Positions 2,393 through 24,985 of a DNA stretch of 64,000 bases are shown in pieces. The notes beneath the pieces are model-generated. The model did not search any database, had not been told where the DNA came from, and was given only the letters and a program-made list of their open reading frames with translations. Every line of letters starts with the position of its first letter. Position 1 is the first letter of the stretch. The position numbers were made by a program, and so were the translations under genes. The DNA is from Candidatus Poribacteria bacterium (lineage in GTDB: Bacteria > Poribacteria > WGA-4E > WGA-3G): positions 2,144,001-2,208,000 of the forward strand of contig OZ251518.1 in NCBI GenBank assembly GCA_965242965.1, given 5' to 3'.

Positions 2393-3487
2393 TTAACGAC
2401 ACGCCAGCAATTTTACACAGACAGGCATCGGCACTTCGGTGACGTGTCCCGTCGCGTTGAGCGCGCCGGTTTCGGTATCAATCGCAAACGTGACAATCGT
2501 ATCCGTTTGTTGATTCGCGGCGAAGAGGAACGTGCCTTCCGGATTCAAACCGAAATTGCGCGGCGTTTTCCCCTGCGTCGATTCATAACCGATAGAGGTG
2601 AGCAATCCGGTCTCCTCGTCGATTCCGCAGATGGCGATGCTATCGTGTCCACGGTTCGAGCCGTAGAGGAATTTCCCGTTGGGATGCACATGCACATCGG
2701 CGCAGTGACTCGTCCCATCAAAATCCGCTGGCAGCGTGGAGAGCGTCTGAAACTCGGTCAGCGTGCCAGCCTCACCGTCGTAGGCAAACGCCGTGAAGGT
2801 AGAGTCTAACTCGTTGATTACATAGGCGAATTTGCCGTTCGGATGGAAATCGAAGTGGCGCGGTCCTGCGCCCGGATGCACGCGCACCCACGGTTGCGCA
2901 TTCGGCGTTAACGTGCCGTTTTCGGCATCAAGGCGATAAATCAAGATTTTATCCAGCCCGAGGTCTGGCGAAAAGGCGTAACGGTTGCCCGGGTCGATCA
3001 TAATCGCGTGCGCGTGCGGCTCCATCTGCCGCTGCGGATTGATGCTGGAACCTTGATGCTGAACGAAATCGGATGCCTCACCAAGTCTGCCATCGGATTC
3101 TATCGGAAAAGCGACAACGCTGCCGCCACCGTAATTCGCGATAAGCAGGAATTTCCCGGTTGCATCGACGCTCAGGTGACACGGCGCGCCGCCTCCGGTC
3201 GCGCGTTTATTGAGGAAACTAATCTCCCCGGTGTCCTGATGGATGTAAAACGCCGTGACGGAACCGCTCGGCTTGCCTTCGTATTCGTTGAGTTCGTTGA
3301 CAGCGTAGAGATACTTGCCGCTTGGGTGAATCTCCACGAACGAGGGATGTTCAACGCCGCTCGCCTTGCTGGAATACTCCAACGCGCCTGTCGCGCCATC
3401 AAGGCGATAGACGTAGATGCCCTCGCTGTCGCTGTGTGTATAAGTGCCAACATAAACGAAATAGTCTTGACTCGTTTGTTGCGCCAT
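2393..3487 (-). CDS. pgl: 6-phosphogluconolactonase / lactonase family beta-propeller
   Basis: YVGTYT, ANYGGG, PHAH, GAGPRH, SNRGHDSI, PRNF motifs. Confidence 0.88.
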   Translation of the reverse strand: MAQQTSQDYFVYVGTYTHSDSEGIYVYRLDGATGALEYSSKASGVEHPSFVEIHPSGKYLYAVNELNEYEGKPSGSVTAFYIHQDTGEISFLNKRATGGGAPCHLSVDATGKFLLIANYGGGSVVAFPIESDGRLGEASDFVQHQGSSINPQRQMEPHAHAIMIDPGNRYAFSPDLGLDKILIYRLDAENGTLTPNAQPWVRVHPGAGPRHFDFHPNGKFAYVINELDSTFTAFAYDGEAGTLTEFQTLSTLPADFDGTSHCADVHVHPNGKFLYGSNRGHDSIAICGIDEETGLLTSIGYESTQGKTPRNFGLNPEGTFLFAANQQTDTIVTFAIDTETGALNATGHVTEVPMPVCVKLLACR

Positions 3488-3633
3488 CTTTCATCTCCTT
3501 TTTCTGTATTTCGCATGCTTCGGGATATGACAATTCTTCTGTGCTTAGTGCAGCCTACCTGTAATTTAAGGATACCATAAAATTTGTGGAATGTCAAGGG
3601 AAGATTCGGATTCCAAAAACGCATAAAAACGCG

Positions 3634-3697
3634 TCCCCAATACCGTCCCTAACACCATTCCCAACACCATCTCCCATACCGTCCCCAACACCACCCC
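3634..3697. repeat. Degenerate 12-bp tandem repeat (CCCAACACCATC-like, about 5 copies)
   Basis: cccaataccgtc cctaacaccatt cccaacaccatc ... read directly. Confidence 0.6.
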
Positions 3698-3703
3698 TCA
3701 CAC

Positions 3704-4105
3704 CGTAGGGCGAGGGCCTGTCCCTCGCCAGGCACCGGTCTGAGCCGCAAACATCCGGAGTCTCTGGGCTGCGGGCGTTTTCCGTTTCGGTTGCGAGATC
3801 GCGGGGGACAGGCCCCCGCGCTACGGGTATCAAGGCGGTTTCCCCTTCACCGAAGGGCGAGGGCCTGTCCCTCGCCAGGCACCGGGCTGAGCCGCAAACA
3901 TCCGTGGGCTCTGGGCTGCGGGCGTTTTCCGTTTCGGTCGAGCGATCGCGGGGGACAGGCCCCCGCGCTACGGGTGTCAAGGCCGTTTCCCCTTCACCGA
4001 AGGGCGAGGGCCTGTCCCTCGCCATGCCTCGGAATTACAGGGGGCCTGTCCGGCAATCGTTCCCTTTCCTGATATGAACATCAAGACCGGGAGAACTCGC
4101 CTACG
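3704..4105. repeat. REP array with an internally duplicated unit of about 145 bp
   Basis: GTAG hairpins plus duplicated ctgggctgcgggcgttttccgtttcgg spacer. Confidence 0.88.
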
Positions 4106-4121
4106 GACAGCCGGTGGTTTT

Positions 4122-5729
4122 TTATACGACATCAACCGTAATCGCGCGCTCAGCACTCTCCTGATAACCGATCCGAACCGCCTTCGCGCGGACCGCCGTT
4201 TGCCCTTTCGGGATACGCAGCGGTTCTGTGTATAACCGCCAACGCGCATCGTCCCCTGAATCTGTCGTCCAAGCGATAGACGCACCGTGCGTAGCACAGT
4301 GAAGTTGCAGAAGCAACGGTGCCTCCCATTGTCCACCCGATTCGGAGACTTCGGTGCCAGGGTTCGCCGCACTGATTGGAATGAAAATCGGTGCCGCGGT
4401 TTTCGGTTGTTCGCCGTTCGGGTACCACCTCGCGAGCATCTGTTCTTCAGGGATGTCTCCCATGTCGCCGAAATCGGATTGCCATTGCGCCAGCGCGCCG
4501 CGCATCCGTTCCAGCACATCAACGTGCGCCGCATCCGATGCCAAGTTGTTGAGTTCATACCGGTCGTTCGCAACATCGTAGAGCTCCTCAGCCGGGCGCG
4601 GATATTGGAACATCACCGCCGCATCGCCTTCTAATTCTCCCGCCGCATGGAGCCGCCACATCTCCTGCATGATAGGATGCCGATTGCGATACGGAATCCA
4701 GAGCAGATACGGCTTTTCGGGGTAATAATTCCTGATGTATTTATACCGTTTATCGCGCACGGCGCGCACCATGTCGTAAGACTCATCATACCGGTCGCGG
4801 GTGGCGAAGATATACTCCCGTTCCCTCGCGTGCAGACCCAGGAAGGGTTGTCCCTGCAGATGTTGCGGTGCCTCCACGCCACACAACGATAACACCGTCG
4901 GACCCAGGTCGATGAGACTCACCAATTGTTCCCTGACGCTGTCCGGCGGCAATTCACCGGGCCAGCGCACAATCAGCGGAATCCGAATGCCGGCATCATA
5001 GGGCCACCGTTTGCCGCGCGGGAGTCCCTCACCGTGGTCACTCCAGAGAAAGACGATGGTATTCTCGGCGAGGTCATCTTCTTCCAACTGAGCCAAGAGT
5101 TCCCCGACGCGCGCATCGGCGGTGGCGAGGTTATCGTAGTGGCGCGCCAATGCCTCACGCGATTTCGGTGTATCCGGCAGATAAGGCGGCAATTGCACGT
5201 CGTCAGGATTTGTCGTCAACGGACGGCCGTTTTCGCGCTCCCACATCCCACTTTCGTGCGTGACGGTAGGGTTGAAAACCGAAAAGAACGGCTGTCCCTC
5301 TTCCCGATTCCGCCAATGCCCGGTGTTGCTACAGTCATCCCATGCTGTGCTTGGCGGCGTGAACTGATAATCGGTCTTGCTATTGTTCGTGCAATAATAG
5401 CCTGCGCCGCGGAGATATTCCGTGAACGTCTTGACATAAGGCGGCGGCACAGCGGAATACGGTGTCGGCATGTCGGGCGTATGCTGGTTCGTGTGCGCTG
5501 TCCGCATGTGATGCGTGCCGATGGAGGTCTGGTACATACCGGTGATAATCGCCGAGCGGCTGGGCGCGCAGACACCGGCGGTGGAGAACGCGTTCGGGAA
5601 TCGGCATCCGCCTGCGGCAAGCCGGTCGATATTCGGTGTCCGCGCGACCGGGTCACCGTAGCAACCGAAGCGCGGGGTTGTATCTTCTAACGAAATCCAA
5701 AGAATGTTCGGGCGATTTGGTGTGTTCAT
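4122..5729 (-). CDS. Formylglycine-type sulfatase with C-terminal FN3/chitobiase-like domain
   Basis: PNILWI, CAPSRSAIITG, SDHG motifs; C-terminal IAWTTD...LYTEPL...VRAKAVRIGY. Confidence 0.92.
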   Translation of the reverse strand: MNTPNRPNILWISLEDTTPRFGCYGDPVARTPNIDRLAAGGCRFPNAFSTAGVCAPSRSAIITGMYQTSIGTHHMRTAHTNQHTPDMPTPYSAVPPPYVKTFTEYLRGAGYYCTNNSKTDYQFTPPSTAWDDCSNTGHWRNREEGQPFFSVFNPTVTHESGMWERENGRPLTTNPDDVQLPPYLPDTPKSREALARHYDNLATADARVGELLAQLEEDDLAENTIVFLWSDHGEGLPRGKRWPYDAGIRIPLIVRWPGELPPDSVREQLVSLIDLGPTVLSLCGVEAPQHLQGQPFLGLHAREREYIFATRDRYDESYDMVRAVRDKRYKYIRNYYPEKPYLLWIPYRNRHPIMQEMWRLHAAGELEGDAAVMFQYPRPAEELYDVANDRYELNNLASDAAHVDVLERMRGALAQWQSDFGDMGDIPEEQMLARWYPNGEQPKTAAPIFIPISAANPGTEVSESGGQWEAPLLLQLHCATHGASIAWTTDSGDDARWRLYTEPLRIPKGQTAVRAKAVRIGYQESAERAITVDVV

Positions 5730-18893: not shown

Positions 18894-19823
18894 CTAGGCG
18901 TTCACCAACCGTTCCACATGCGCCACGACAGACTCAGACACGCCTTCCAAACTATAGCCGCCCTCCAACGCCGAGACAACACGGCCATCAGCAAATTCAA
19001 GAACTAGCTCGGTTAGCGTCGCAAAACCTGATGGGGTTACGGCTGTTGTCGAGAGTCTGTCAAGGTAATGCGCGTCAAATCCTGCTGAGATGAGGATGAG
19101 CTCCGGCGCAAACGTCTTTAACGCCGGGATGAGTATCTTCTCAAAAACGGCGATGTAATCGCTGTCACCGCTGCCGCCGCGCATCGGCACATTTAACGTT
19201 GTGCCTTGCCCTTTTCCGTAACCGCGTTCATTCCGTGCGCCGGTGCCGGGATAGAGCGGCGATTCGTGGATAGAAAAAAAGAAGACAGAGCCATCTTCGT
19301 AAAAAATGTCTTGCGTGCCGTTGCCGTGATGGACATCCCAATCGACAATTGCCACTCTCTCTAACTTGTGTTCCTTTCGGAGGTAGCGTGCCGCGATGGC
19401 GATGTTATTGAATAGACAGAACCCCATGCTCTGATTAGTGGTAGCGTGATGTCCTGGCGGCCGCACGAGGGCGAACGCATTTTTCGCCGAACCTGTTGCG
19501 ACTGCTGCTGCCGCCTGTAGCACGCCGCCTGCCGAAAGCCGCGCGATGTCAAACGATGCCTTAACGACAGGCGTATCATAGGTAAGTGGAACTTCCTGTT
19601 CGCAGTGTCGCCGGATGTGTTCGCTATAGTTCGGCGCGTGCGCGTAGCGGAGTTGTTCAATGCTAGCGTGCGTCGGTTCGATGTGGTGGAGTTGTGTCCA
19701 CACGTCGTTCTTCTGCAGTGCAGCGAGACAAGTCCGTAGTCGACTTGGCCGTTCAGGGTGATTTGGGCCGGTGTCGTGGTTGAGGTATTCGGGGTGGTAG
19801 ATGAAGGCGGTTTTTGGGTTCAT
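18894..19823 (-). CDS. Histone deacetylase / acetylpolyamine amidohydrolase family protein
   Basis: HPERP.R, RPPGHHA, GFCLFNN, DWDVHHGNGTQ, SAGFDAH, LEGGY. Confidence 0.95.
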   Translation of the reverse strand: MNPKTAFIYHPEYLNHDTGPNHPERPSRLRTCLAALQKNDVWTQLHHIEPTHASIEQLRYAHAPNYSEHIRRHCEQEVPLTYDTPVVKASFDIARLSAGGVLQAAAAVATGSAKNAFALVRPPGHHATTNQSMGFCLFNNIAIAARYLRKEHKLERVAIVDWDVHHGNGTQDIFYEDGSVFFFSIHESPLYPGTGARNERGYGKGQGTTLNVPMRGGSGDSDYIAVFEKILIPALKTFAPELILISAGFDAHYLDRLSTTAVTPSGFATLTELVLEFADGRVVSALEGGYSLEGVSESVVAHVERLVNA

Positions 19824-19833
19824 AAGGTTCCTT

Positions 19834-21336
19834 CTATTCTCTGTAGTCTGCCAATAGAGTCAAGATTTCCTCGCAGTATGCCTCAAGGGTTTTCCGCTCA
19901 TGAGGTTGGAGAATATCGCGGTTATGCGCCAAAGGATTTCTGCACCTCACAAGCATCTGCTTCCGTTGCTCCCAGTAATTGGTGTCGCGCCCAAAGATTG
20001 ACGAAAAGTGTGTTGCCCACAATCCTTTCGCGCAGATAATCGTAAACAGCTCTGCAGGGTAGGTAAAATCAATCAAATTTTGCGAGGCTCTATCTCCAAA
20101 CGATTTTTCCTCTTTCTGCTGTGTTTTCCGGCACCTCTCAAAAATGTCCGCTAAGTTGCGCCATCCTTTCCCCAATTCTTCAATCCAACCTTCTCCATAG
20201 GCATTGGACATAGTAGTTGTGATTACGTTGCGAAGGGCTTTCTCAGTATCTCTCCAAATCGGCCATAACGCTGCATCGAATTCAGGTTTCCGTTCTAGGA
20301 GTCTCAGGTAATCTTGGAAGTGTTCGGCGTAGGCAACATAAATACCTTTTTCGCTGGCTCTGATCAGGCCGTAGTTTGCGAGTTCAGTCACATCAGGTGG
20401 CTTGATATCAACAGCCGGTCCAAAAAGAATTTGGAGCAATTTGCTCAAGGTGCCTTCCTCTTGCATTAACCGAGCCATGTCGTCGTAATGCTCAGAGACA
20501 GACTGGCTAATAGTCTTTGCAGCTTTGTCTACATCAATTTCCTGATTCTGCCGCAAACTCTCAACGATTTCGCATCCTAACATTTCAAGGAGATAGGGAT
20601 GTGCGCCGCAATAGAACAACACACGTTCCCTGAATGCATCCGATGTTGATATCCCCACAGGCGAAAATTGCGCGAAGTATGCTTCCAAGTCCTCGTCGTT
20701 AAACATGGCTAACCGTTGGACCTGGAAAATGTTATGAAATGGAGAAGAAGAACCGGCTTGACGTTCAATATCTCCAATGTTCCGACGCGCGGTGAGCACG
20801 AGAGATAGCCGGTAATCTGGATAATCAGCCAATTCGCGTAAACGCTGAAAGGCAGTCTCTCCTTTAAAAAGATTTCGCGCGGCATCAAATTCGTCAAGCA
20901 CGAAAAGAGTGCCGTATCCAGCGTCTTGGACTTTCTTAAAGAAACGTTTAATTCGGTCCCACGTGGCGTTGACTTCCAGCGCGCGGTCGGCTGCACGCTG
21001 GATCTCTGGTGTGAGCCAATCTAAGTCTTCCAATTCTTGGACAGATTCCTCCACGAGCGCACGGAAGAAATCAGACGACTCATCGTAGGAAGCAAGTCCC
21101 ATCCATATTGGCAAGATCTTCTTGGCGATGAGCGTCTCTTTCTGCTCCATAACTGTTTTGTAAGCGAGGCTGCTTTTGCCGATGCGATGCACGCCAATAA
21201 TGGCGAGGTTACCCGGATTATGGGGACAGATAATCCGGTTTTCAATATCCGTTATCAACGCTGTCCGGCCGATGAAGCGTTCTCCATGAACCATTTTACC
21301 GTAATCCGCAAATGGGTTTTCAAAATTGTAACGCAT
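19834..21336 (-). CDS. STAND/AAA-like NTPase with C-terminal Swt1-like HEPN domain
   Basis: NPF...FIGR, Walker A GVHRIGKSS, Walker B FVLDEFD, GAHPYLL; C-terminal EKALR...RNPLAH (RxxxxH). Confidence 0.8.
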   Translation of the reverse strand: MRYNFENPFADYGKMVHGERFIGRTALITDIENRIICPHNPGNLAIIGVHRIGKSSLAYKTVMEQKETLIAKKILPIWMGLASYDESSDFFRALVEESVQELEDLDWLTPEIQRAADRALEVNATWDRIKRFFKKVQDAGYGTLFVLDEFDAARNLFKGETAFQRLRELADYPDYRLSLVLTARRNIGDIERQAGSSSPFHNIFQVQRLAMFNDEDLEAYFAQFSPVGISTSDAFRERVLFYCGAHPYLLEMLGCEIVESLRQNQEIDVDKAAKTISQSVSEHYDDMARLMQEEGTLSKLLQILFGPAVDIKPPDVTELANYGLIRASEKGIYVAYAEHFQDYLRLLERKPEFDAALWPIWRDTEKALRNVITTTMSNAYGEGWIEELGKGWRNLADIFERCRKTQQKEEKSFGDRASQNLIDFTYPAELFTIICAKGLWATHFSSIFGRDTNYWEQRKQMLVRCRNPLAHNRDILQPHERKTLEAYCEEILTLLADYRE

Positions 21337-21348
21337 TTCGTTCTCCCT

Positions 21349-22944
21349 TCATCCGTTAACGATAAGCCACTCTTTGAACAGCCCTACCTTAATTTGATAA
21401 GATTGCTCGCGCCGTTCAACGACATCGCGTTTCACGAGATCATTGAGAATTGTATCAACAGGCAAATGCGTTTCGCAGACAATGGTATCACGATGACAAG
21501 GGCCCGCTTTGCTATTGTCTGCGATAACTTTCAGAACTCTTAACGCGTCTTCATCTGATATTGCATCCGCTGAGGTATCCCCCGAATTGATAAGGTTATC
21601 AAACTTATCTAAACCGAGGGCATTTACCCCACTTATCAGTTCATTTTTGACATGTTCCACATCCGCCTCTGTTACCAAAGCTGCACGCTTGCGATTCATG
21701 TATTCAACGAGCCGGTTGCAAATGATTTGAATGTAGAACGGGCTGCCCGCGGTGAGTGCTAAAATCCGTTCAATTGCTTGCTCTCGATAGCGACTTGCGC
21801 CTTGCCGCCCGCCGATGCGTATCGGTTCGTCGACAAGTCTCCGGGCATCTTCCAGTGTAAGGTAGGTAACGCGTTCATCTTGTGTTGTGCCAAATTCGTT
21901 AGGAAAGCGTTCCTTAAACTTTGGCATCACATCCTGTCCTACCAACACGGCACTGAAGTAGTTTGCCTGCAACAGAGCCTTCCAGTTTTGCATGAACGAC
22001 CCGGGAATCTTGCCTGCAACGATGCGTTCGTAGATATATTGGAACTCATCTATGAGGAGCACAGCCCGGACACCACGCCACTCCTCATGACGAGCGACTT
22101 GACGTTTCAACCTCTCAAAGGTATCTTGAAAGCATTGCAGGGGGGCCGGATGCCCATAGAATTCACTATCGTCGGGAATAAGAAGATTTAATGAACTAAA
22201 ACCTTCATCAACCCGGTCTTCAATCGCGAATTCCAGCACGGTGATGATGCGCTTAAGAATTTGGTGTAGCAGTGGGACATGGGAACTTTCGTCCTGAACA
22301 GACCCGAGATTTCCCAAATCAAGGATAAGCAGGTTCCTATCTTTCTGCAGTGACTCCTTTAAGTGATGCAAAACCGAGGATTTGCCAGACCGTTTTTGCC
22401 CGAATACTACGACACACTTGCTCCCCGAGCGAGATTCTTGGATAGCATGCGCGATGTTTTGGATAAGTTCTTCACGCCCAAAAAACATCTGGGCATCTCC
22501 AACAATCCCTCCTTCGGCATAAGCGGCATACGGATTTTCAATTTCCTCAAACTCGTCTTCAGAATATAACCGAATAGAGAGGTTCTCGACAGGCGTTTTT
22601 TCTTCCCTTTTCGCGCGAGTCCGATACCGAGCATAAACAGGTAAAGAGAAGGTTTGTGCTCTTGAAGTTTCATGAGTTAATTGCAAAGGGACTTCTAGGA
22701 TGGACAGAGCACCGCTCTGACTTGGAGTAGGTTCTGAAAAACCAGACTCATCACCCAGATTATCCAGACGCTGAACAGCAATGATGGCCTCCACCAAAAT
22801 TGTTGCTTCGCCTTTTGCTCCGTCCAAGGTGATATGATCTTGCCCGATTTCTGTGAGGATTCCTGAGACTTGATCGCCTGTTGTTAGCGTGCAACTGATT
22901 CGGCTACCAATCTGAGCCTTCTTTTGAATTAATTGTGTCCGCAT
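21349..22944 (-). CDS. STAND/AAA-like NTPase with N-terminal Sm/LSm-like domain and C-terminal winged helix
   Basis: NPY...FFGRE, Walker A GQKRSGKSS, Walker B LLIDEFQ, AGSPFYIQ; N-terminal GDQVSGILTEIGQDHITL pattern; start uncertain (22944-22959). Confidence 0.75.
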   Translation of the reverse strand: MRTQLIQKKAQIGSRISCTLTTGDQVSGILTEIGQDHITLDGAKGEATILVEAIIAVQRLDNLGDESGFSEPTPSQSGALSILEVPLQLTHETSRAQTFSLPVYARYRTRAKREEKTPVENLSIRLYSEDEFEEIENPYAAYAEGGIVGDAQMFFGREELIQNIAHAIQESRSGSKCVVVFGQKRSGKSSVLHHLKESLQKDRNLLILDLGNLGSVQDESSHVPLLHQILKRIITVLEFAIEDRVDEGFSSLNLLIPDDSEFYGHPAPLQCFQDTFERLKRQVARHEEWRGVRAVLLIDEFQYIYERIVAGKIPGSFMQNWKALLQANYFSAVLVGQDVMPKFKERFPNEFGTTQDERVTYLTLEDARRLVDEPIRIGGRQGASRYREQAIERILALTAGSPFYIQIICNRLVEYMNRKRAALVTEADVEHVKNELISGVNALGLDKFDNLINSGDTSADAISDEDALRVLKVIADNSKAGPCHRDTIVCETHLPVDTILNDLVKRDVVERREQSYQIKVGLFKEWLIVNG

Positions 22945-23493
22945 AACCATCACCTTCACAACCTATAACATTACTAGGGCATTCGGGGGCGTGGCAAGAT
23001 GCCACGCCTCTAACTCTACGGAGTTGCAGTACCGAATCTAGCCTGCAAGTTGACTACCTCCGGCTTCAAGCCTCGTAACTCACGCCAGCGAAACCTGCAC
23101 GTAAGTCTTTACTAAATTGATGCGATGCGATATTTCATGCACAACGGTGGGGGTGAGTGCCAACTATCGCCTCGGCAGAATTCCAACCCCGGGCATCTCG
23201 CGCAACGCATTTAACATAGGGATTACGCAAAATGGCTCAGGCGAGTAAAACGCGCCTAACGAAACTCGCGCAATCTTCCTCATCTTTTCCAACCCATAAC
23301 CGTAGCGAAACAGCTGATGCAACATGACAAAGTTTTTTCTGCATCCCTGGAAACGCTTTATCACTTATGCGGACACACCTCACAACCAATCATTACCGAT
23401 GTAGATAGGTTTGCCGAACACACTTTATGAGGTGGCATACTTTTAATCATACCACTTCTCAAACCCGATGTCAAATTTTTCGCGTTTGCGGCA

Positions 23494-24189
23494 TTATTGA
23501 GACATGCCAACCCGGCCATCCGCCATCTGCAACTGCTTCGCGACGATAGTTTTCAAAAGCTGCACGATGGCTTCGGCTTCAAAAATCCCGTGGTATTCGC
23601 GCGAACATTCCGCTGTGAACGTCGGTTTCTCGGTGTCAATATCCAACACGATACCGCGAACGAAATTCCAACTGCCAGAAACAGCATAGCACCCAAAAAT
23701 CTCTTGCTCGCCATTCGACGGTTCCGCGCCATTTTCCCAATTAAGACGCGAAGCAGCGAGCATTTGCCCGTAAAGTTGCACCTGCGGGTCTGGTGCATTC
23801 ACCCCGCGTTTTGCCTCGTAGACAATGAAATAAGGGTGACGAGGCTTCCCCGCGGCAGCAGGCGCGAGTGCACCATCTGCCACCCCCTCCAATTGAAAGC
23901 TCGGATAGGTGGCTCGCAACGGAACGCCTGTCCACGCGCGAATGTAAGCGTGTTCTGCAAGGACTAATAGCGGATAAATGGCACGCGCCCAAAGCGTGCT
24001 TTCATTCAAAACTACTAGGTTGAGATTCCGCAAAATGGACTTGTGATAGTCAATCTGGGCGACTTCTGCGGCAGTTAAGCCTTCTTCCTGTAAGGCATCC
24101 CAGTTGTCAGACGTATCTATCTGGATATGGAGTTCCACAAGTTCCCTGAGTATTTCTTCGGATAATTCTGAAAAACTGTAGGTTTTCAT
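23494..24189 (-). CDS. Hypothetical protein, PD-(D/E)xK nuclease-like (copy 1)
   Basis: NE..L, G.ADG, YEAKRG, QLYGQMLAA, FGCY...W.F. Confidence 0.7.
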   Translation of the reverse strand: MKTYSFSELSEEILRELVELHIQIDTSDNWDALQEEGLTAAEVAQIDYHKSILRNLNLVVLNESTLWARAIYPLLVLAEHAYIRAWTGVPLRATYPSFQLEGVADGALAPAAAGKPRHPYFIVYEAKRGVNAPDPQVQLYGQMLAASRLNWENGAEPSNGEQEIFGCYAVSGSWNFVRGIVLDIDTEKPTFTAECSREYHGIFEAEAIVQLLKTIVAKQLQMADGRVGMSQ

Positions 24190-24213: not shown

Positions 24214-24326
24214 CGCGAGGGACAGGCCCTCGCGCTACGGTGAAGACGGCGATAGTTGGGTTCGCGAGGGACAGGCCCTCGCGCTACGGTGACTGAGAGC
24301 ACGCGAGGGACAGGCACACGCCCTAC
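24214..24326. repeat. Direct-repeat REP array (CGCGAGGGACAGGCCCTCGCGCTAC)
   Basis: Three units between the duplicated genes. Confidence 0.85.
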
Positions 24327-24985
24327 GGAAACTGCTTCGTGACGATAGTTTTCAGAATTTGCACGATGGCTTCAGCCTCAAAAATCCCGTTGTAGACGCG
24401 CGAAAATACAGCGGTGAACGTCGGTTTCTCGGTGTCAATGCCGCCGACGATACCGCGCACAAAAGTCCAACTTTCAGAGACAGCATAGCACCCGAAAATT
24501 TCTTGTTCCGCGGGTGGTTCTGTCATGTCTTTCCAATTGAGCCATGCGGCGGCGAGCATTTGGCCATAGAGTTGCACCTGCGGGTCTGGGGCATTTACGC
24601 CGCGCTTTGCCTCATAAACGATGAAATAAGGTTGACAGGGTTTCCCCGCGGCAGCAGGCGCGAGGGCACCATCTGCCGTCCCTTCCAATTGAAAACTCGG
24701 ATAGGTGGCTTTCAGCGGAACGCTTGTCCATGCTTGAATATCGGCGTGTTCTGCGAGGACTAACAACGGATAAATGGCGCGCGCCCAAAGCGTGCCTTCG
24801 TTCATGACGACGAAGTTCCTTTCACGCAAGATGGACTTGAGATAATCAATCTGGGAGGTTTCTGCCGGTGTTAAGTGGGGTTTCTGCATGCTTTCCCATT
24901 CGCTAGAAATGCCTCGCTGGATGTGAAGTGTTACGAGCTCCCGGAACGTTTCTTCGGATAACTCTGAAAAACTGTAGGTTTTCAC
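24323..24985 (-). CDS. Hypothetical protein, PD-(D/E)xK nuclease-like (copy 2)
   Basis: Paralogue of 23494-24189 with the same leader and N-terminus; GTG start. Confidence 0.7.
   Translation of the reverse strand: MKTYSFSELSEETFRELVTLHIQRGISSEWESMQKPHLTPAETSQIDYLKSILRERNFVVMNEGTLWARAIYPLLVLAEHADIQAWTSVPLKATYPSFQLEGTADGALAPAAAGKPCQPYFIVYEAKRGVNAPDPQVQLYGQMLAAAWLNWKDMTEPPAEQEIFGCYAVSESWTFVRGIVGGIDTEKPTFTAVFSRVYNGIFEAEAIVQILKTIVTKQFP

What the first reader, a model, noticed from the sequence alone, without database searches (positions are those of the whole stretch)
19834..22944. Two-gene STAND-NTPase module (Sm-like+NTPase, then NTPase+HEPN): candidate undescribed defence system
Seen: two co-oriented genes 12 bp apart, more AT-rich by eye than their neighbours and with no REP array between them. 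Both have Walker A/B (GQKRSGKSS/LLIDEFQ; GVHRIGKSS/FVLDEFD) and a GxP motif. The downstream gene ends in RNPLAH (RxxxxH). Known: STAND NTPases with effector domains (e.g. Avs) act in antiphage defence, and RxxxxH marks HEPN RNases. Inference: the first ~60 aa of the upstream gene follow an Sm/LSm pattern and no TPR sensor is present, suggesting an RNA-binding NTPase that activates an NTPase-RNase partner. The short junction after the Sm-like part could instead be an internal deletion of a larger protein.
Basis: partly seen in the sequence, partly recalled or inferred. Interest (0 to 1): 0.8.

Follow-up and report, generated by a model that had tools for sequence, protein, structure and literature searches.

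The report
Sensor-less variant of two-ATPase RNase module
Two adjacent genes in a sponge-symbiont genome form a widespread but unnamed pair of related switch-type ATPases, one carrying a probable RNA-cutting domain, and this copy has lost in frame the roughly 1,000-residue repeat region that most relatives carry.

Summary
Two co-oriented minus-strand genes lie 12 bp apart in a low-GC islet (0.47 against 0.55-0.56 in the flanks), and all the cited motifs are present.

P1 (21349-22944/22959) has a predicted Sm-like N-terminal barrel and an ORC/Cdc6-like STAND ATPase with a winged helix. It scores above the Pfam nSTAND1 cut-off. P2 (19834-21336) is a paralogous ATPase with a Swt1/AbiF-like HEPN domain and an invariant RNPLAH.

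The pair is close to obligate:
- P1 lies directly upstream of P2 in 52 of 54 testable P2-anchored loci.
- P2 lies directly downstream of P1 in 71 of 71 testable P1-anchored loci.
- It occurs in at least 11 bacterial and 2 archaeal phyla.

The usual P1 is about 1,500-1,670 aa: Sm-like cap, then about 1,000 aa of TPR/helical region, then the ATPase. The window copy lacks long-form residues about 70-1098. It is not a decayed remnant:
- dN/dS is 0.12-0.14, the same range as long forms.
- The motifs are intact.
- Short forms recur with different junctions and also spread by recombination.

A complex model supports P1-P2 binding (0.68; best control 0.00), and natural P1-P2 fusions exist.

No named system matched. 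The closest description is the computationally predicted two-STAND HEPN/GT4 operon of Kaur et al. 2021. A defence function is inferred, not shown.

The parts
21349..22959 (-). P1 gene (536 aa from GTG 22959; more likely 531 aa from ATG 22944): short form of the Sm-capped STAND/ORC-like ATPase
   Evidence: ORF. Start-codon context. Pfam AAA_16, AAA_22 and nSTAND1 above their cut-offs. AlphaFold model with mean pLDDT 85.4.
22762..22944 (-). Sm-like small beta-barrel cap (MRTQ...VQRLD)
   Evidence: AlphaFold predicts helix 2-14 and strands 20-25, 30-38, 42-47, 50-55 and 59-64 at pLDDT 82-88. Pfam DUF2642 scores 20.5 bits, below the 22.7 cut-off; Hfq_1 is weak. An HMM of this domain hits the N-terminus of 37 of 37 long forms.
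22699..22761 (-). Disordered linker containing the deletion junction (about residue 82, nt about 22713)
   Evidence: pLDDT is below 50 for residues 67-87. BLASTP to the L022 long form aligns P1 residues 5-67 with long-form 7-69, and P1 83-536 with long-form 1099-1554. Contigs of 4 runs bridge this stretch.
22552..22698 (-). Remnant of the beta-rich domain that precedes the ATPase in long forms
   Evidence: Aligns to long-form residues about 1099-1150. Modelled as short strands at pLDDT 63-70. Other short forms keep less or more of this segment.
21352..22551 (-). ATPase, helical and winged-helix module of P1, beginning at the ENPY motif. Walker A 22375-22401, Walker B 22045-22062, GxP 21736-21750.
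21337..21348 (-). 12-nt spacer with an AGGGAG ribosome-binding site between P1 and P2
   Evidence: Read directly from the sequence.
19834..21336 (-). P2 gene (500 aa): paralogous ATPase with winged helix and C-terminal HEPN. Walker A 21169-21195, Walker B 20884-20907, GxP 20593-20607.
19837..20286 (-). Swt1/AbiF-like HEPN domain, with the RNPLAH motif at 19924-19941
23446..23474 (-). Promoter-like site (TTGACA, 17 nt, TG-TATGAT; 11 of 12 consensus positions), about 500 nt upstream of P1
   Evidence: Consensus scan. The region gave 7 sites against 4.9 expected from shuffles, so this is only a candidate.

Best explanation
This is a horizontally mobile two-gene NTPase-RNase conflict module, most likely for antiviral or abortive-infection defence. 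It belongs to an unnamed but widespread family.

**Components**
- P1 is the sensing and switching subunit. It has an Sm-like cap and an nSTAND1-type ORC/Cdc6-like ATPase with a winged helix.
- P2 is a paralogous ATPase that carries the effector, a Swt1/AbiF-type HEPN RNase.

**Proposed mechanism (inferred)**
1. The two ATPase modules assemble side by side, with a conserved P2 segment packing on the P1 P-loop.
2. A signal received by the N-terminal part of P1 drives nucleotide-dependent oligomerisation.
3. Oligomerisation brings P2 HEPN domains together into an active RNase.
4. The RNase cuts RNA and arrests the cell or the invader.

**What is particular to this copy**
In the canonical form, the region between the cap and the ATPase is about 1,000 aa of TPR/helical repeats, sometimes with a cold-shock domain. 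The window copy is a minority short allele in which that region was removed in frame. The Sm-like cap, the ATPase and P2 remain intact and under selection.

**Shown:** anatomy, pairing, the deletion, purifying selection, mosaic evolution, and a predicted interface.
**Inferred:** defence role, RNase activity, the nature of the signal, and whether the short allele still senses anything.
For: **Pairing**
- The P1 core lies directly upstream of P2 in 52 of 54 P2-anchored genome loci that have upstream DNA. The search found 58 loci; 4 are cut by contig ends.
- P2 begins 5-275 nt after P1 in 71 of 71 P1-anchored metagenome loci with at least 300 nt downstream. The search kept 80 loci; 9 have no room.
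- Pairwise identities of the core and of P2 co-vary (Spearman 0.76).
- P0298 (2,026 aa) and P0301 (2,180 aa) fuse a P1-like protein to a P2-like ATPase. P0298 residues 1461-1787 match P2 residues 7-328 at 30% identity, E 6e-47. Both carry SLFN_AlbA_2 in place of HEPN.

**Predicted complex**
- P1 residues 131-536 with P2 scored 0.68 (runs 0.68, 0.72, 0.66). The best of 3 controls scored 0.00.
- In the tool's calibration, 116 of 157 solved complexes and 2 of 215 mismatched pairs reached the mark.
- The runs agree in at least 84% of contacts, and the partner pLDDT is at least 81.
- The interface joins P1 141-152, 189-198 and 214-251 to P2 123-134, 158-174 and 198-210.
- ORC/Cdc6 heteromers are solved, so part of this score may reflect likeness to them.

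**Folds and motifs:**

**Deletion:** window P1 equals L022 long-form residues 7-69 plus 1099-1554.

**Selection**
- Window against L001, both short: core dN/dS 0.122 and P2 0.139.
- Seven long-long pairs: core 0.040-0.186 and P2 0.090-0.265.
- P2 keeps Walker A, Walker B and RNPLAHNR in the 6 short-form loci where a P2 ORF of over 400 aligned residues was recovered: window, L001, L002, L015, L020, L038.

**Mobility and accessory status**
- GC is 0.47 against 0.55-0.56.
- The module is present in 5 of 40 related genomes. It was not found in same-genus G002 (94% complete), where synteny stops at window 19829.
- It occurs in at least 11 bacterial and 2 archaeal phyla at 40-84% identity.

**Theme typical of conflict systems**
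- The N-terminal module is shuffled relative to the core. L004 and L030: cap 100% identical, core 57%. L008 and L009: cap 37%, core 95%.
- The effector is exchangeable (HEPN or SLFN_AlbA_2).
Against: - No experiment exists, and no model in PADLOC v2 or NCBIfam names the pair.
- The genomic neighbourhood is only weakly defence-like. Among 137 flanking ORFs of 21 loci, few hit PADLOC at E<=1e-5: a TIR protein (L020), HEC-09 (L030), a BrxH/DruE-like helicase (L034), NERD+UvrD (L039), PDC-M56B (L013), and PD_DExK plus a TnpB-like protein (L007). The 'mad2' hits are ordinary methyltransferases. Most neighbours are housekeeping genes.
- Only 1 distant relative (31% identity) was found on viral contigs.
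- The window copy lacks the presumed sensor, so this particular copy may not work as described.
- The P2 model is of middling quality (pLDDT 71, P-loop region below 50).
Confidence: 0.6

Rival explanations
1. The short allele is a disarmed remnant kept by addiction. Loss of the TPR region abolishes sensing. The P1 ATPase core must nevertheless stay expressed, because it holds the P2 HEPN toxin in check. Only in-frame deletions that keep the native start and the whole ATPase would then survive.
For: - Every short form keeps the complete ATPase from the ENPY motif onward. The retained C-terminal part is 394-534 aa, and N-side breakpoints all fall in the disordered linker after the cap.
- Forms with a disrupted or truncated N-terminal region but an intact core and P2 also occur. 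Examples are L036, L052, L056, L089 and L094.
- Some short forms evolve faster than their long sisters. L015 has 49 unique changes against 10, P0015 has 22 against 8, and P0010 has 13 against 4.
- The predicted P1-P2 interface is consistent with one protein restraining the other.
Against: - The relative-rate excess is absent in 7 of 10 triplets.
- The Sm-like cap is itself conserved in short forms, and a short N-terminal cassette is passed between loci by recombination. The L002 cap is 92% identical to that of P0083, while the cores are 55% identical. A useless stub would not be expected to spread in this way.
- At least one P2 next to a short form is broken (L053). Addiction is therefore not absolute.
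Confidence: 0.22
2. The short form is a functional minimal system. In it the Sm-like cap is the sensor, for example of an RNA, or the oligomerisation platform. The TPR region is then a dispensable regulatory or autoinhibitory insert.
For: - The cap is the one N-terminal feature present in all architectures. It is found in 37 of 37 long genome forms, 50 of 51 long metagenome forms and all short forms.
- dN/dS is as low as in long forms.
- Short forms occur in several phyla with at least 8 different C-side junction positions.
- Nucleic-acid-binding domains occur elsewhere in the family. CSD scores 35 bits in P0250, above the cut-off of 27.
- As an analogy, an Sm-like WYL accessory protein stimulates the HEPN RNase Cas13d (abstract of PMC6547453, seen in the listing).
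Against: - Short forms are rare. Complete short forms are 3 of the best 150 cluster representatives, 3 of 80 metagenome loci and 6 of 52 genome loci.
- RNA binding by the cap is untested.
- The window and its same-genus relative L001 may have spent most of their divergence (dS about 0.5) as long forms.
Confidence: 0.2
3. The module is not an immune system. It is a cellular RNA-surveillance or stress-response device, or a plain toxin-antitoxin-like selfish pair.
For: - The flanks are mostly housekeeping genes, and the module sits at conserved chromosomal sites within lineages. GFO_IDH_MocA lies upstream in L007, L010, L013, L017 and L037; PhyH lies downstream in L002, L004, L006 and L030.
- Few defence neighbours were found, and the module is almost absent from viral contigs.
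Against: - The distribution is patchy even within a genus.
- GC is atypical for the genome.
- The module spreads across phyla, including archaea, at high identity.
- Domains are shuffled and the effector is swapped. These are hallmarks of conflict systems rather than of housekeeping pathways.
Confidence: 0.12

Closest known systems
Two-gene 'nSTAND2' operon predicted by Kaur, Iyer, Burroughs & Aravind 2021 (eLife 10:e70394, PMC8195603; passages read)
   Same: - A mobile two-gene operon in which both products have a STAND-type NTPase core.
- The authors predict that the two form a hetero-multimer.
- The second protein carries a variable effector, commonly a HEPN RNase.
- Here, the second ATPase of the fused relative P0298 gives a weak nSTAND2 hit (19.9 bits, cut-off 24).
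   Different: - In that system one STAND has eroded NTP-binding motifs. Here both Walker A and Walker B are intact and invariant.
- Neither window protein matches the Pfam nSTAND2 model. P1 matches nSTAND1 instead.
- The passages read do not mention an Sm-like cap or a TPR block N-terminal to the NTPase. The figure itself was not seen, and the supplementary alignments were only glimpsed.
Avs (antiviral STAND) proteins and bacterial NLR-like receptors (for example Avs3, PDB 8dgc; survey in Nature 2026, PMC13581612, passages read)
   Same: - A STAND NTPase combined with a TPR-type repeat region and a nuclease-type effector.
- Sensor regions are variable and shuffled.
   Different: - Avs is one polypeptide ordered effector, NTPase, C-terminal sensor. 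Here the repeat region is N-terminal to the NTPase, and the effector sits on a second, paralogous NTPase.
- No Avs model in PADLOC matched.
Swt1-like / Abi2-AbiF HEPN clade (Anantharaman et al. 2013, PMC3710099, Table 1 passages read; PbAbiF structure 8vz6)
   Same: - An Rx4H HEPN domain of the Swt1 type.
- Table 1 of that paper lists bacterial Swt1-like HEPN domains fused to 'STAND-ATPase, TPR, S1'. These may include relatives of this family.
   Different: - AbiF is a small HEPN protein regulated by an ncRNA and has no ATPase.
- I could not check whether the listed examples (Npun_F6454 and others) belong to this family.
Archaeal Arch_ATPase proteins PAB2304 / SSO1545 (PDB 2qen, 2fna) and Orc1/Cdc6
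   Different: - They are stand-alone ATPase plus winged-helix proteins or replication initiators.
- They have no Sm-like cap, no TPR region, no HEPN domain and no paired paralogue.
PADLOC candidate PDC-M34 (protein B)
   Same: The P2 HEPN part (residues 365-487) matches PDC-M34B at E 3.5e-9.
   Different: - The match covers only the HEPN domain (profile positions 69-182 of 192).
- The ATPase parts of P1 and P2 match nothing in that system, so this is not a member.
WYL1-Cas13d (PMC6547453; abstract only, from the listing)
   Same: A protein with an Sm-like beta-barrel modulates a HEPN RNase. It is a functional analogy for cap-to-HEPN signalling.
   Different: It is an unrelated system with no NTPase. 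The likeness is an analogy only.

Membership tests
STAND / ORC-Cdc6-like P-loop NTPases (Pfam nSTAND1 for P1) | Walker A GxxxxGK[ST] and Walker B hhhhDE | tested here: met
   P1 has GQKRSGKSS and VLLIDE; P2 has GVHRIGKSS and LFVLDEFD. These residues are invariant in the alignments.
STAND / ORC-Cdc6-like P-loop NTPases (Pfam nSTAND1 for P1) | Score at or above the curated Pfam cut-off | tested here: met
   P1 scores 35.3 bits on nSTAND1 (cut-off 27.1) and 40.3 bits on AAA_16 (cut-off 32.6). P2 hits no nSTAND model. Its AAA_22 score is 26.6 (cut-off 27) and its NACHT E-value is 0.032. The sequence-model test is therefore met for P1 only.
STAND / ORC-Cdc6-like P-loop NTPases (Pfam nSTAND1 for P1) | Helical domain with a GxP motif, followed by a winged helix after the NTPase | tested here: met
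   AGSPF in P1 and GAHPY in P2. The models align end to end with the ATPase plus winged-helix proteins 2qen and 2fna.
nSTAND2 two-gene operon (Kaur et al. 2021) | Two adjacent STAND NTPase genes, the second carrying a HEPN or GT4 effector | tested here: met
.
nSTAND2 two-gene operon (Kaur et al. 2021) | The effector-bearing STAND has eroded NTP-binding motifs | tested here: not met
   The Walker A and B motifs of P2 are intact and invariant in 18 sequences. All three motifs (Walker A, Walker B, RxxxxHNR) were found in 42 of 51 P2 ORFs with a strict pattern; the misses are mostly truncated or offset ORFs.
nSTAND2 two-gene operon (Kaur et al. 2021) | Match to the Pfam nSTAND2 model (PF20702) | tested here: not met
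   P1 and P2 gave no hit even at E<=10. Only the fused relative P0298 gives 19.9 bits, below the cut-off of 24.
Avs (antiviral STAND) | A single protein ordered N-terminal effector, STAND, C-terminal TPR-type sensor | tested here: not met
   In long forms the TPR region precedes the NTPase. The effector is on a separate protein. No Avs model in PADLOC matched.
HEPN RNases (Swt1-like) | Rx4-6H motif in an all-helical domain, with a Pfam score at or above the cut-off | tested here: met
   RNPLAH with R466 and H471 invariant. HEPN_Swt1 scores 29.3 bits against a cut-off of 27.5. Helices span residues 358-499.
HEPN RNases (Swt1-like) | Fold likeness to a solved HEPN structure | tested here: inconclusive
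HEPN RNases (Swt1-like) | RNase activity | not testable with these tools
   Needs biochemistry.
Sm / LSm / Hfq-like fold | An N-terminal helix followed by five bent beta-strands forming a small barrel | tested here: met
   AlphaFold predicts H2-14, E20-25, E30-38, E42-47, E50-55 and E59-64 at pLDDT 82-88. This is predicted topology only.
Sm / LSm / Hfq-like fold | Score at or above the cut-off of an Sm-type Pfam family | tested here: not met
   - The window cap scores 20.5 bits on DUF2642 (cut-off 22.7) and 12.6 on Hfq_1.
- Across 25 caps, only sub-threshold hits were found, to DUF2642, RimP SH3, DUF5608, LSM, SM-ATX and Hfq.
- One family member, P0271, passes DUF2642 at 24.7 bits.
- That DUF2642 belongs to the Sm clan is my recollection, not a result of any call.
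Sm / LSm / Hfq-like fold | Fold search of the isolated domain, ring oligomer, RNA binding | not tested
In whole-model searches the ATPase fills the hit list. The Atlas search gave leads only, with scores of 0.85-0.88 to DUF6897, DUF2642 and Hfq_1.

The most novel reading that the evidence does not exclude
The family would be a distinct, phylum-spanning immune architecture: a heteromeric pair of active ORC/Cdc6-like STAND ATPases. The universal Sm-like cap would be an RNA-sensing or ring-forming trigger. The roughly 1,000-aa TPR block would be a removable regulatory layer.

On this reading, sensor-less alleles such as the window's are functional, and they arise again and again by in-frame deletion and then spread by recombination because losing the block is adaptive. 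Possible advantages are escape from phage inhibitors that target the TPR region, or a switch from protein sensing to RNA sensing.
Probability: 0.18. Interest if true: 0.8.

Novelty: new variant of a known kind. Interest (0 to 1): 0.6.

Why it matters
**Size and conservation of the family**
- A search of 1.84 billion cluster representatives gave 627 hits at E<=1e-30.
- Identity is 50-77% across at least 13 phyla.
- No entry for the pair was found in PADLOC v2, NCBIfam or the Protein Data Bank.
- No experimental study turned up in the full-text searches.

**What is unusual about the architecture**
- It departs from the Avs/NLR scheme. Two active paralogous NTPases are likely to work as a heteromer.
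- The repeat region lies N-terminal to the NTPase.
- An Sm-like cap is present throughout the family.
- The RNA-directed effector is exchangeable (HEPN or Schlafen-type AlbA_2).

**What the short alleles offer**
They are natural sensor-deletion mutants. They allow a direct test of what the repeat region does (autoinhibition or sensing) and of whether the Sm-like cap alone can trigger a STAND switch.

**Consequence for genome annotation**
The roughly 530-aa gene should be read as an in-frame-deleted allele of a roughly 1,550-aa gene. It is not a separate small protein family.

Tried and rejected
- **Sequence search of the PDB.** Single proteins and the profiles A1 and A2 gave no meaningful relatives; the best E-values were 0.03-0.7.
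- **PADLOC and NCBIfam.** Only P-loop-level or HEPN-only hits were returned.
- **A simple 'single origin of short forms'.** Rejected. The short label needs at least 11 changes on the core tree (66 rows) and 11 on the cap tree (6 forced by well-supported branches). Recombination between cap and core confounds both trees, so I rely on the differing junctions and on the L002/L004 DNA comparison.
- **Accelerated evolution of short forms.** The relative-rate tests are mixed. Totals are 194 against 120 unique changes, driven by L015; 7 of 10 triplets are not significant. I do not use this as evidence of decay.
- **A conserved third gene.** None found. The recurrent roughly 290-aa downstream ORF in Latescibacterota is a PhyH dioxygenase, and the PADLOC 'mad2' hits are generic methyltransferases. 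The HDAC-like gene 10 bp downstream of P2 in the window is a core gene, also present in G002, which lacks the module.
- **Viral origin.** One distant hit was found among IMG/VR contigs.
- **Expression.** No RNA holder is listed among the 18 runs, so nothing can be said about expression.
- **Own-genome paralogues.** No long-form copy was found. The only other match is a weak one to an unrelated ATPase.
- **Earlier notes of this scan.** No look-alike was found by sequence.
- **Fold test of the Sm-like cap alone.** In the whole-model VIA and Foldseek searches the ATPase fills the lists.
- **Supplements of PMC8195603.** Searched only for keywords. Figure 6 and its source data were not examined in detail and could contain members of this family.

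Full report
**1. The observation**

One search lists two minus-strand ORFs, P1 (21349..22959) and P2 (19834..21336).
- P1 is 536 aa if it starts at the GTG.
- The ATG at 22944 is the likelier start. It has an AAGGTG 7 nt upstream, and the closest homologues begin MRTQLIQ.
- P2 is 500 aa.
- The P1 stop is followed by 12 nt holding an AGGGAG ribosome-binding site, then the P2 ATG.

The pair has GC 0.473, against 0.558 and 0.551 in the flanks. Contigs from four public runs of three studies bridge the unusual junction in P1, so it is not an assembly artefact.

Earlier notes of this scan and the names of close homologues put the genome in Poribacteria, which are sponge symbionts.

**2. What the two proteins are**

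*P1*
- It scores above the Pfam cut-offs for AAA_16, AAA_22 and nSTAND1 (35.3 bits, cut-off 27.1) at residues 155-394.
- Its AlphaFold model has mean pLDDT 85.4.
- The first 66 residues are modelled as one helix plus five strands at pLDDT 82-88, which is the Sm topology.
- Residues 67-87 are disordered, and residues 88-136 form a poorly modelled beta remnant.
- At sequence level the cap gives only sub-threshold hits, and these fall mainly on small-barrel families: DUF2642, RimP SH3, DUF5608, LSM, SM-ATX, Hfq. One relative passes the DUF2642 cut-off (P0271).
- I therefore call it 'Sm-like' with moderate confidence. The isolated domain was not fold-searched.

*P2*
- R466, H471, N472 and R473 are invariant.

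**3. The pair is an obligate two-gene module**

- *Anchored on P2.* The search found 58 genome loci. Four are cut just upstream of P2. Of the other 54, 52 have the P1 core immediately upstream. The exceptions are L031, where P2 is orphaned beside an aminotransferase, and L055, where the partner is a different AAA_35-type ATPase.
- *Anchored on P1.* The search kept 80 metagenome loci. All 71 with at least 300 nt downstream have P2 starting 5-275 nt after P1.
- *No third gene.* Flanks are mostly housekeeping genes, with occasional transposases and a few defence genes.
- *Phyletic spread.* Hosts include Poribacteria, Latescibacterota, Chloroflexota, Cyanobacteriota, Nitrospirota, Bacteroidota, Thermodesulfobacteriota, Pseudomonadota, Spirochaetota, Bacillota and Vulcanimicrobiota, plus two archaeal phyla.
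- *Patchy among relatives.* The module is in 5 of 40 genomes related to the window's. One of two same-genus genomes has it, at the same site. It was not found in the other, G002, where synteny ends exactly at the downstream HDAC-like gene.
- *Single copy here.* The window's own genome has only this one copy.

**4. The window copy is an in-frame deletion allele**

In most loci the cap lies about 3.3 kb upstream of the core, within the same ORF. Upstream ORFs in the 52 genome loci fall into these classes:

| Class | Loci |
|---|---|
| Long, 1,445-1,668 aa | 37 |
| Short, in frame | 6 |
| Partly deleted (L003) | 1 |
| Broken or otherwise truncated | 4 |
| Cut by a contig end | 4 |

- The middle of long forms holds TPR repeats (TPR_19 and others, around residues 540-650 of L022). 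Some also carry a cold-shock domain (P0250 at 35 bits; weaker in P0258 and L004).
- Window P1 aligns to L022 residues 7-69 (70% identity) and 1099-1554 (72%). About 1,030 residues are missing.
- Among 64 metagenome loci with complete 5' ends, 51 are long and 2 are short; one further short form runs off its contig.
- Among the best 150 of 4,356 cluster representatives, 112 are at least 1,200 aa. Only P0002 (the window's cluster), P0074 and P0368 are complete short forms.
- The cap HMM hits the N-terminus of all 37 long genome forms, three of them weakly, and 50 of 51 long metagenome forms.

**5. How short forms arise and persist**

*Different junctions*
- The retained C-terminal part ranges from 394 to 534 aa, and the retained N-terminal part from about 60 to 134 aa.
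- The window and its closest relatives L001 and P0003 differ in their junctions, although they are in the same genus and at the same site. The window keeps long-form residues about 1099-1130, which L001/P0003 lack. L001/P0003 keep a segment like long-form residues about 190-225, which the window lacks.
- Neither can therefore derive from the other by simple deletion.
- All junctions leave the cap whole and the ATPase whole from its ENPY motif onward.

*Recombination*
- L002 (short) and L004 (long) sit at the same chromosomal site. They are 92% identical in DNA in the upstream flank and 97% identical from the core onward.
- L002 has 75 nt where L004 has 3,282 nt.
- The L002 cap is only about 52% identical in protein to that of L004, but 92% identical to the cap of P0083. 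The core of P0083 is 55% identical to that of L002.
- Short N-terminal cassettes therefore move between loci.
- More generally, cap and core have discordant histories. L004 and L030: cap 100%, core 57%. L008 and L009: cap 37%, core 95%. Spearman correlation is 0.40. Core and P2 travel together (Spearman 0.76).
- Because of this, the tree-based count of at least 11 changes is an upper-leaning estimate. I rest the claim of recurrence on the junctions.

*Selection*

| Comparison | Core dN/dS | P2 dN/dS |
|---|---|---|
| Window against L001 (both short) | 0.122 | 0.139 |
| Seven long-long pairs | 0.040-0.186 | 0.090-0.265 |

- The N-terminal part of P1, including the linker, gives 0.38.
- Relative-rate tests are mixed: 3 of 10 triplets show a faster short form.
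- Walker and HEPN motifs are intact in the 6 short-form loci where a full-length P2 ORF was recovered.
- One caveat applies. The deletions cannot be dated, so part of this constraint may predate them.

**6. Do P1 and P2 work together physically?**

- A complex prediction of P1 131-536 with P2 scored 0.68 (runs 0.68, 0.72, 0.66). The best of three controls scored 0.00.
- In the tool's calibration, 116 of 157 solved complexes and 2 of 215 mismatched pairs reached the mark.
- The runs agree in at least 84% of contacts, and the partner pLDDT is at least 81.
- The interface places the invariant P2 segment 158-174 and residues 123-134 against the P1 P-loop helix (189-198), the ENPY segment (141-152) and residues 214-251. 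This is an AAA+-style side-by-side contact.
- ORC/Cdc6 heteromers are solved, so part of the score may be likeness to them.
- Independent support comes from natural fusions. P0298 and P0301 join a long P1-like protein to a P2-like ATPase (30% identity to P2 residues 7-328, E 6e-47). Both end in a Schlafen-type AlbA_2 domain instead of HEPN. This also marks the P2 C-terminus as an exchangeable effector slot.

**7. Mechanism**

The best-supported reading is a mobile NTPase-RNase conflict module.
- P1 senses through its N-terminal region: cap, repeats and sometimes a cold-shock domain.
- The two ATPase modules co-assemble.
- Nucleotide-dependent oligomerisation brings the HEPN domains together to cut RNA.

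Only the anatomy, pairing, evolution and predicted interface are shown. The trigger, the RNase activity and the defence role are inferred from what is established for STAND receptors and HEPN effectors. These points rest on general knowledge of Avs/NLR proteins and HEPN dimers and on the passages read.

For this copy, three states remain open:
- a functional minimal system that senses through the cap;
- a disarmed allele retained because the P1 core restrains P2;
- a recently deleted allele not yet decayed.

**8. Comparison with what is known**

- *Closest description.* This is the computational prediction by Kaur et al. 2021 of a mobile two-gene operon of two STAND NTPases ('nSTAND2'), in which one has eroded motifs and is fused to GT4 or HEPN. 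Here both NTPases are intact, P1 is of nSTAND1 type, and the window proteins do not match the nSTAND2 model. It is therefore a related design but not a member.
- *A possible earlier sighting.* Anantharaman et al. 2013 list Swt1-like HEPN domains fused to 'STAND-ATPase, TPR, S1'. These may include relatives, but I could not verify this.
- *Avs.* Avs proteins share the parts but differ in their order and in being a single chain.
- *Databases.* PADLOC v2 (2023) and NCBIfam (2026) have no model for the pair. The PDB has no sequence relatives.
- *Literature.* Five full-text searches found no paper on this family. That library omits much of the subscription literature. DefenseFinder could not be run.

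**9. Verdict**

The finding is a real, unnamed variant of STAND-HEPN conflict systems. It is also a natural sensor-deletion allele of that variant. I rate interest at 0.6. The family is large, conserved, architecturally unusual and untested. The kind of system has already been anticipated computationally, and this particular copy may be functionally reduced.

Noticed in passing
window 18894-19823 (minus strand): A histone-deacetylase-family gene (Pfam Hist_deacetyl, E 1.7e-98) starts 10 bp after the P2 stop on the same strand. It is a core gene: it is also present in G002, which lacks the module, and synteny breaks exactly at its start (window 19829). The module is therefore inserted directly upstream of it and may read through into it.
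   Followed up: partly
window 23494-24189 and 24323-24985 (minus strand): Two tandem paralogues (231 and 220 aa) with weak PADLOC PD_DExK ('CRISPR-associated') hits at E 1.5e-5 and 6.5e-6. The same-genus genome G001 has only one copy here. Stronger members of the same family (E 1e-43 to 1e-46) lie near the module in L007, beside a TnpB/Cas12f-like gene.
   Followed up: partly
window 22607-22715: In contigs of runs X1, X2 and X5, a minority form joins 22606 to 22716 with other sequence in between, replacing P1 residues about 82-118. In X5 its depth is about 171, against about 3,000-4,400 for the main form. It may be the L001/P0003-type allele, or a long form, from a co-occurring relative. One such contig is 3,174 nt long.
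   Followed up: no
P0298 (2,026 aa) and P0301 (2,180 aa): These are natural single-chain fusions of a long P1-like protein with a P2-like ATPase. They end in a Schlafen-type AlbA_2 domain in place of HEPN. The second ATPase gives a weak hit to Pfam nSTAND2.
   Followed up: partly
L055:2230-3822: In a Caldilinea MAG, the gene upstream of P2 is a 530-aa AAA_35-type ATPase unrelated to P1 (BLASTP E 0.25). This is a possible partner swap.
   Followed up: partly
P0250 residues 346-411; L004:2223-6986 residues 384-449; P0252 residues 9-54: Some long forms carry a cold-shock (CSD) domain within the middle region. One representative has an HTH_17 domain at the N-terminus in place of the Sm-like cap. 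The N-terminal region is thus a variable set of nucleic-acid-binding modules.
   Followed up: partly
L022:8991-10147; L011:8639-9913: DDE transposase genes (DDE_3, DDE_Tnp_1) lie directly downstream of the module in some Poribacteria loci.
   Followed up: no
L089 and L094 (metagenome loci): These are long-form P1 genes whose frame is interrupted between cap and core. The cap lies about 3.4 kb upstream, but the ORFs containing the core are only 869 and 738 aa. P2 is intact in both. The cause could be pseudogenisation of the sensor region or sequencing error.
   Followed up: no
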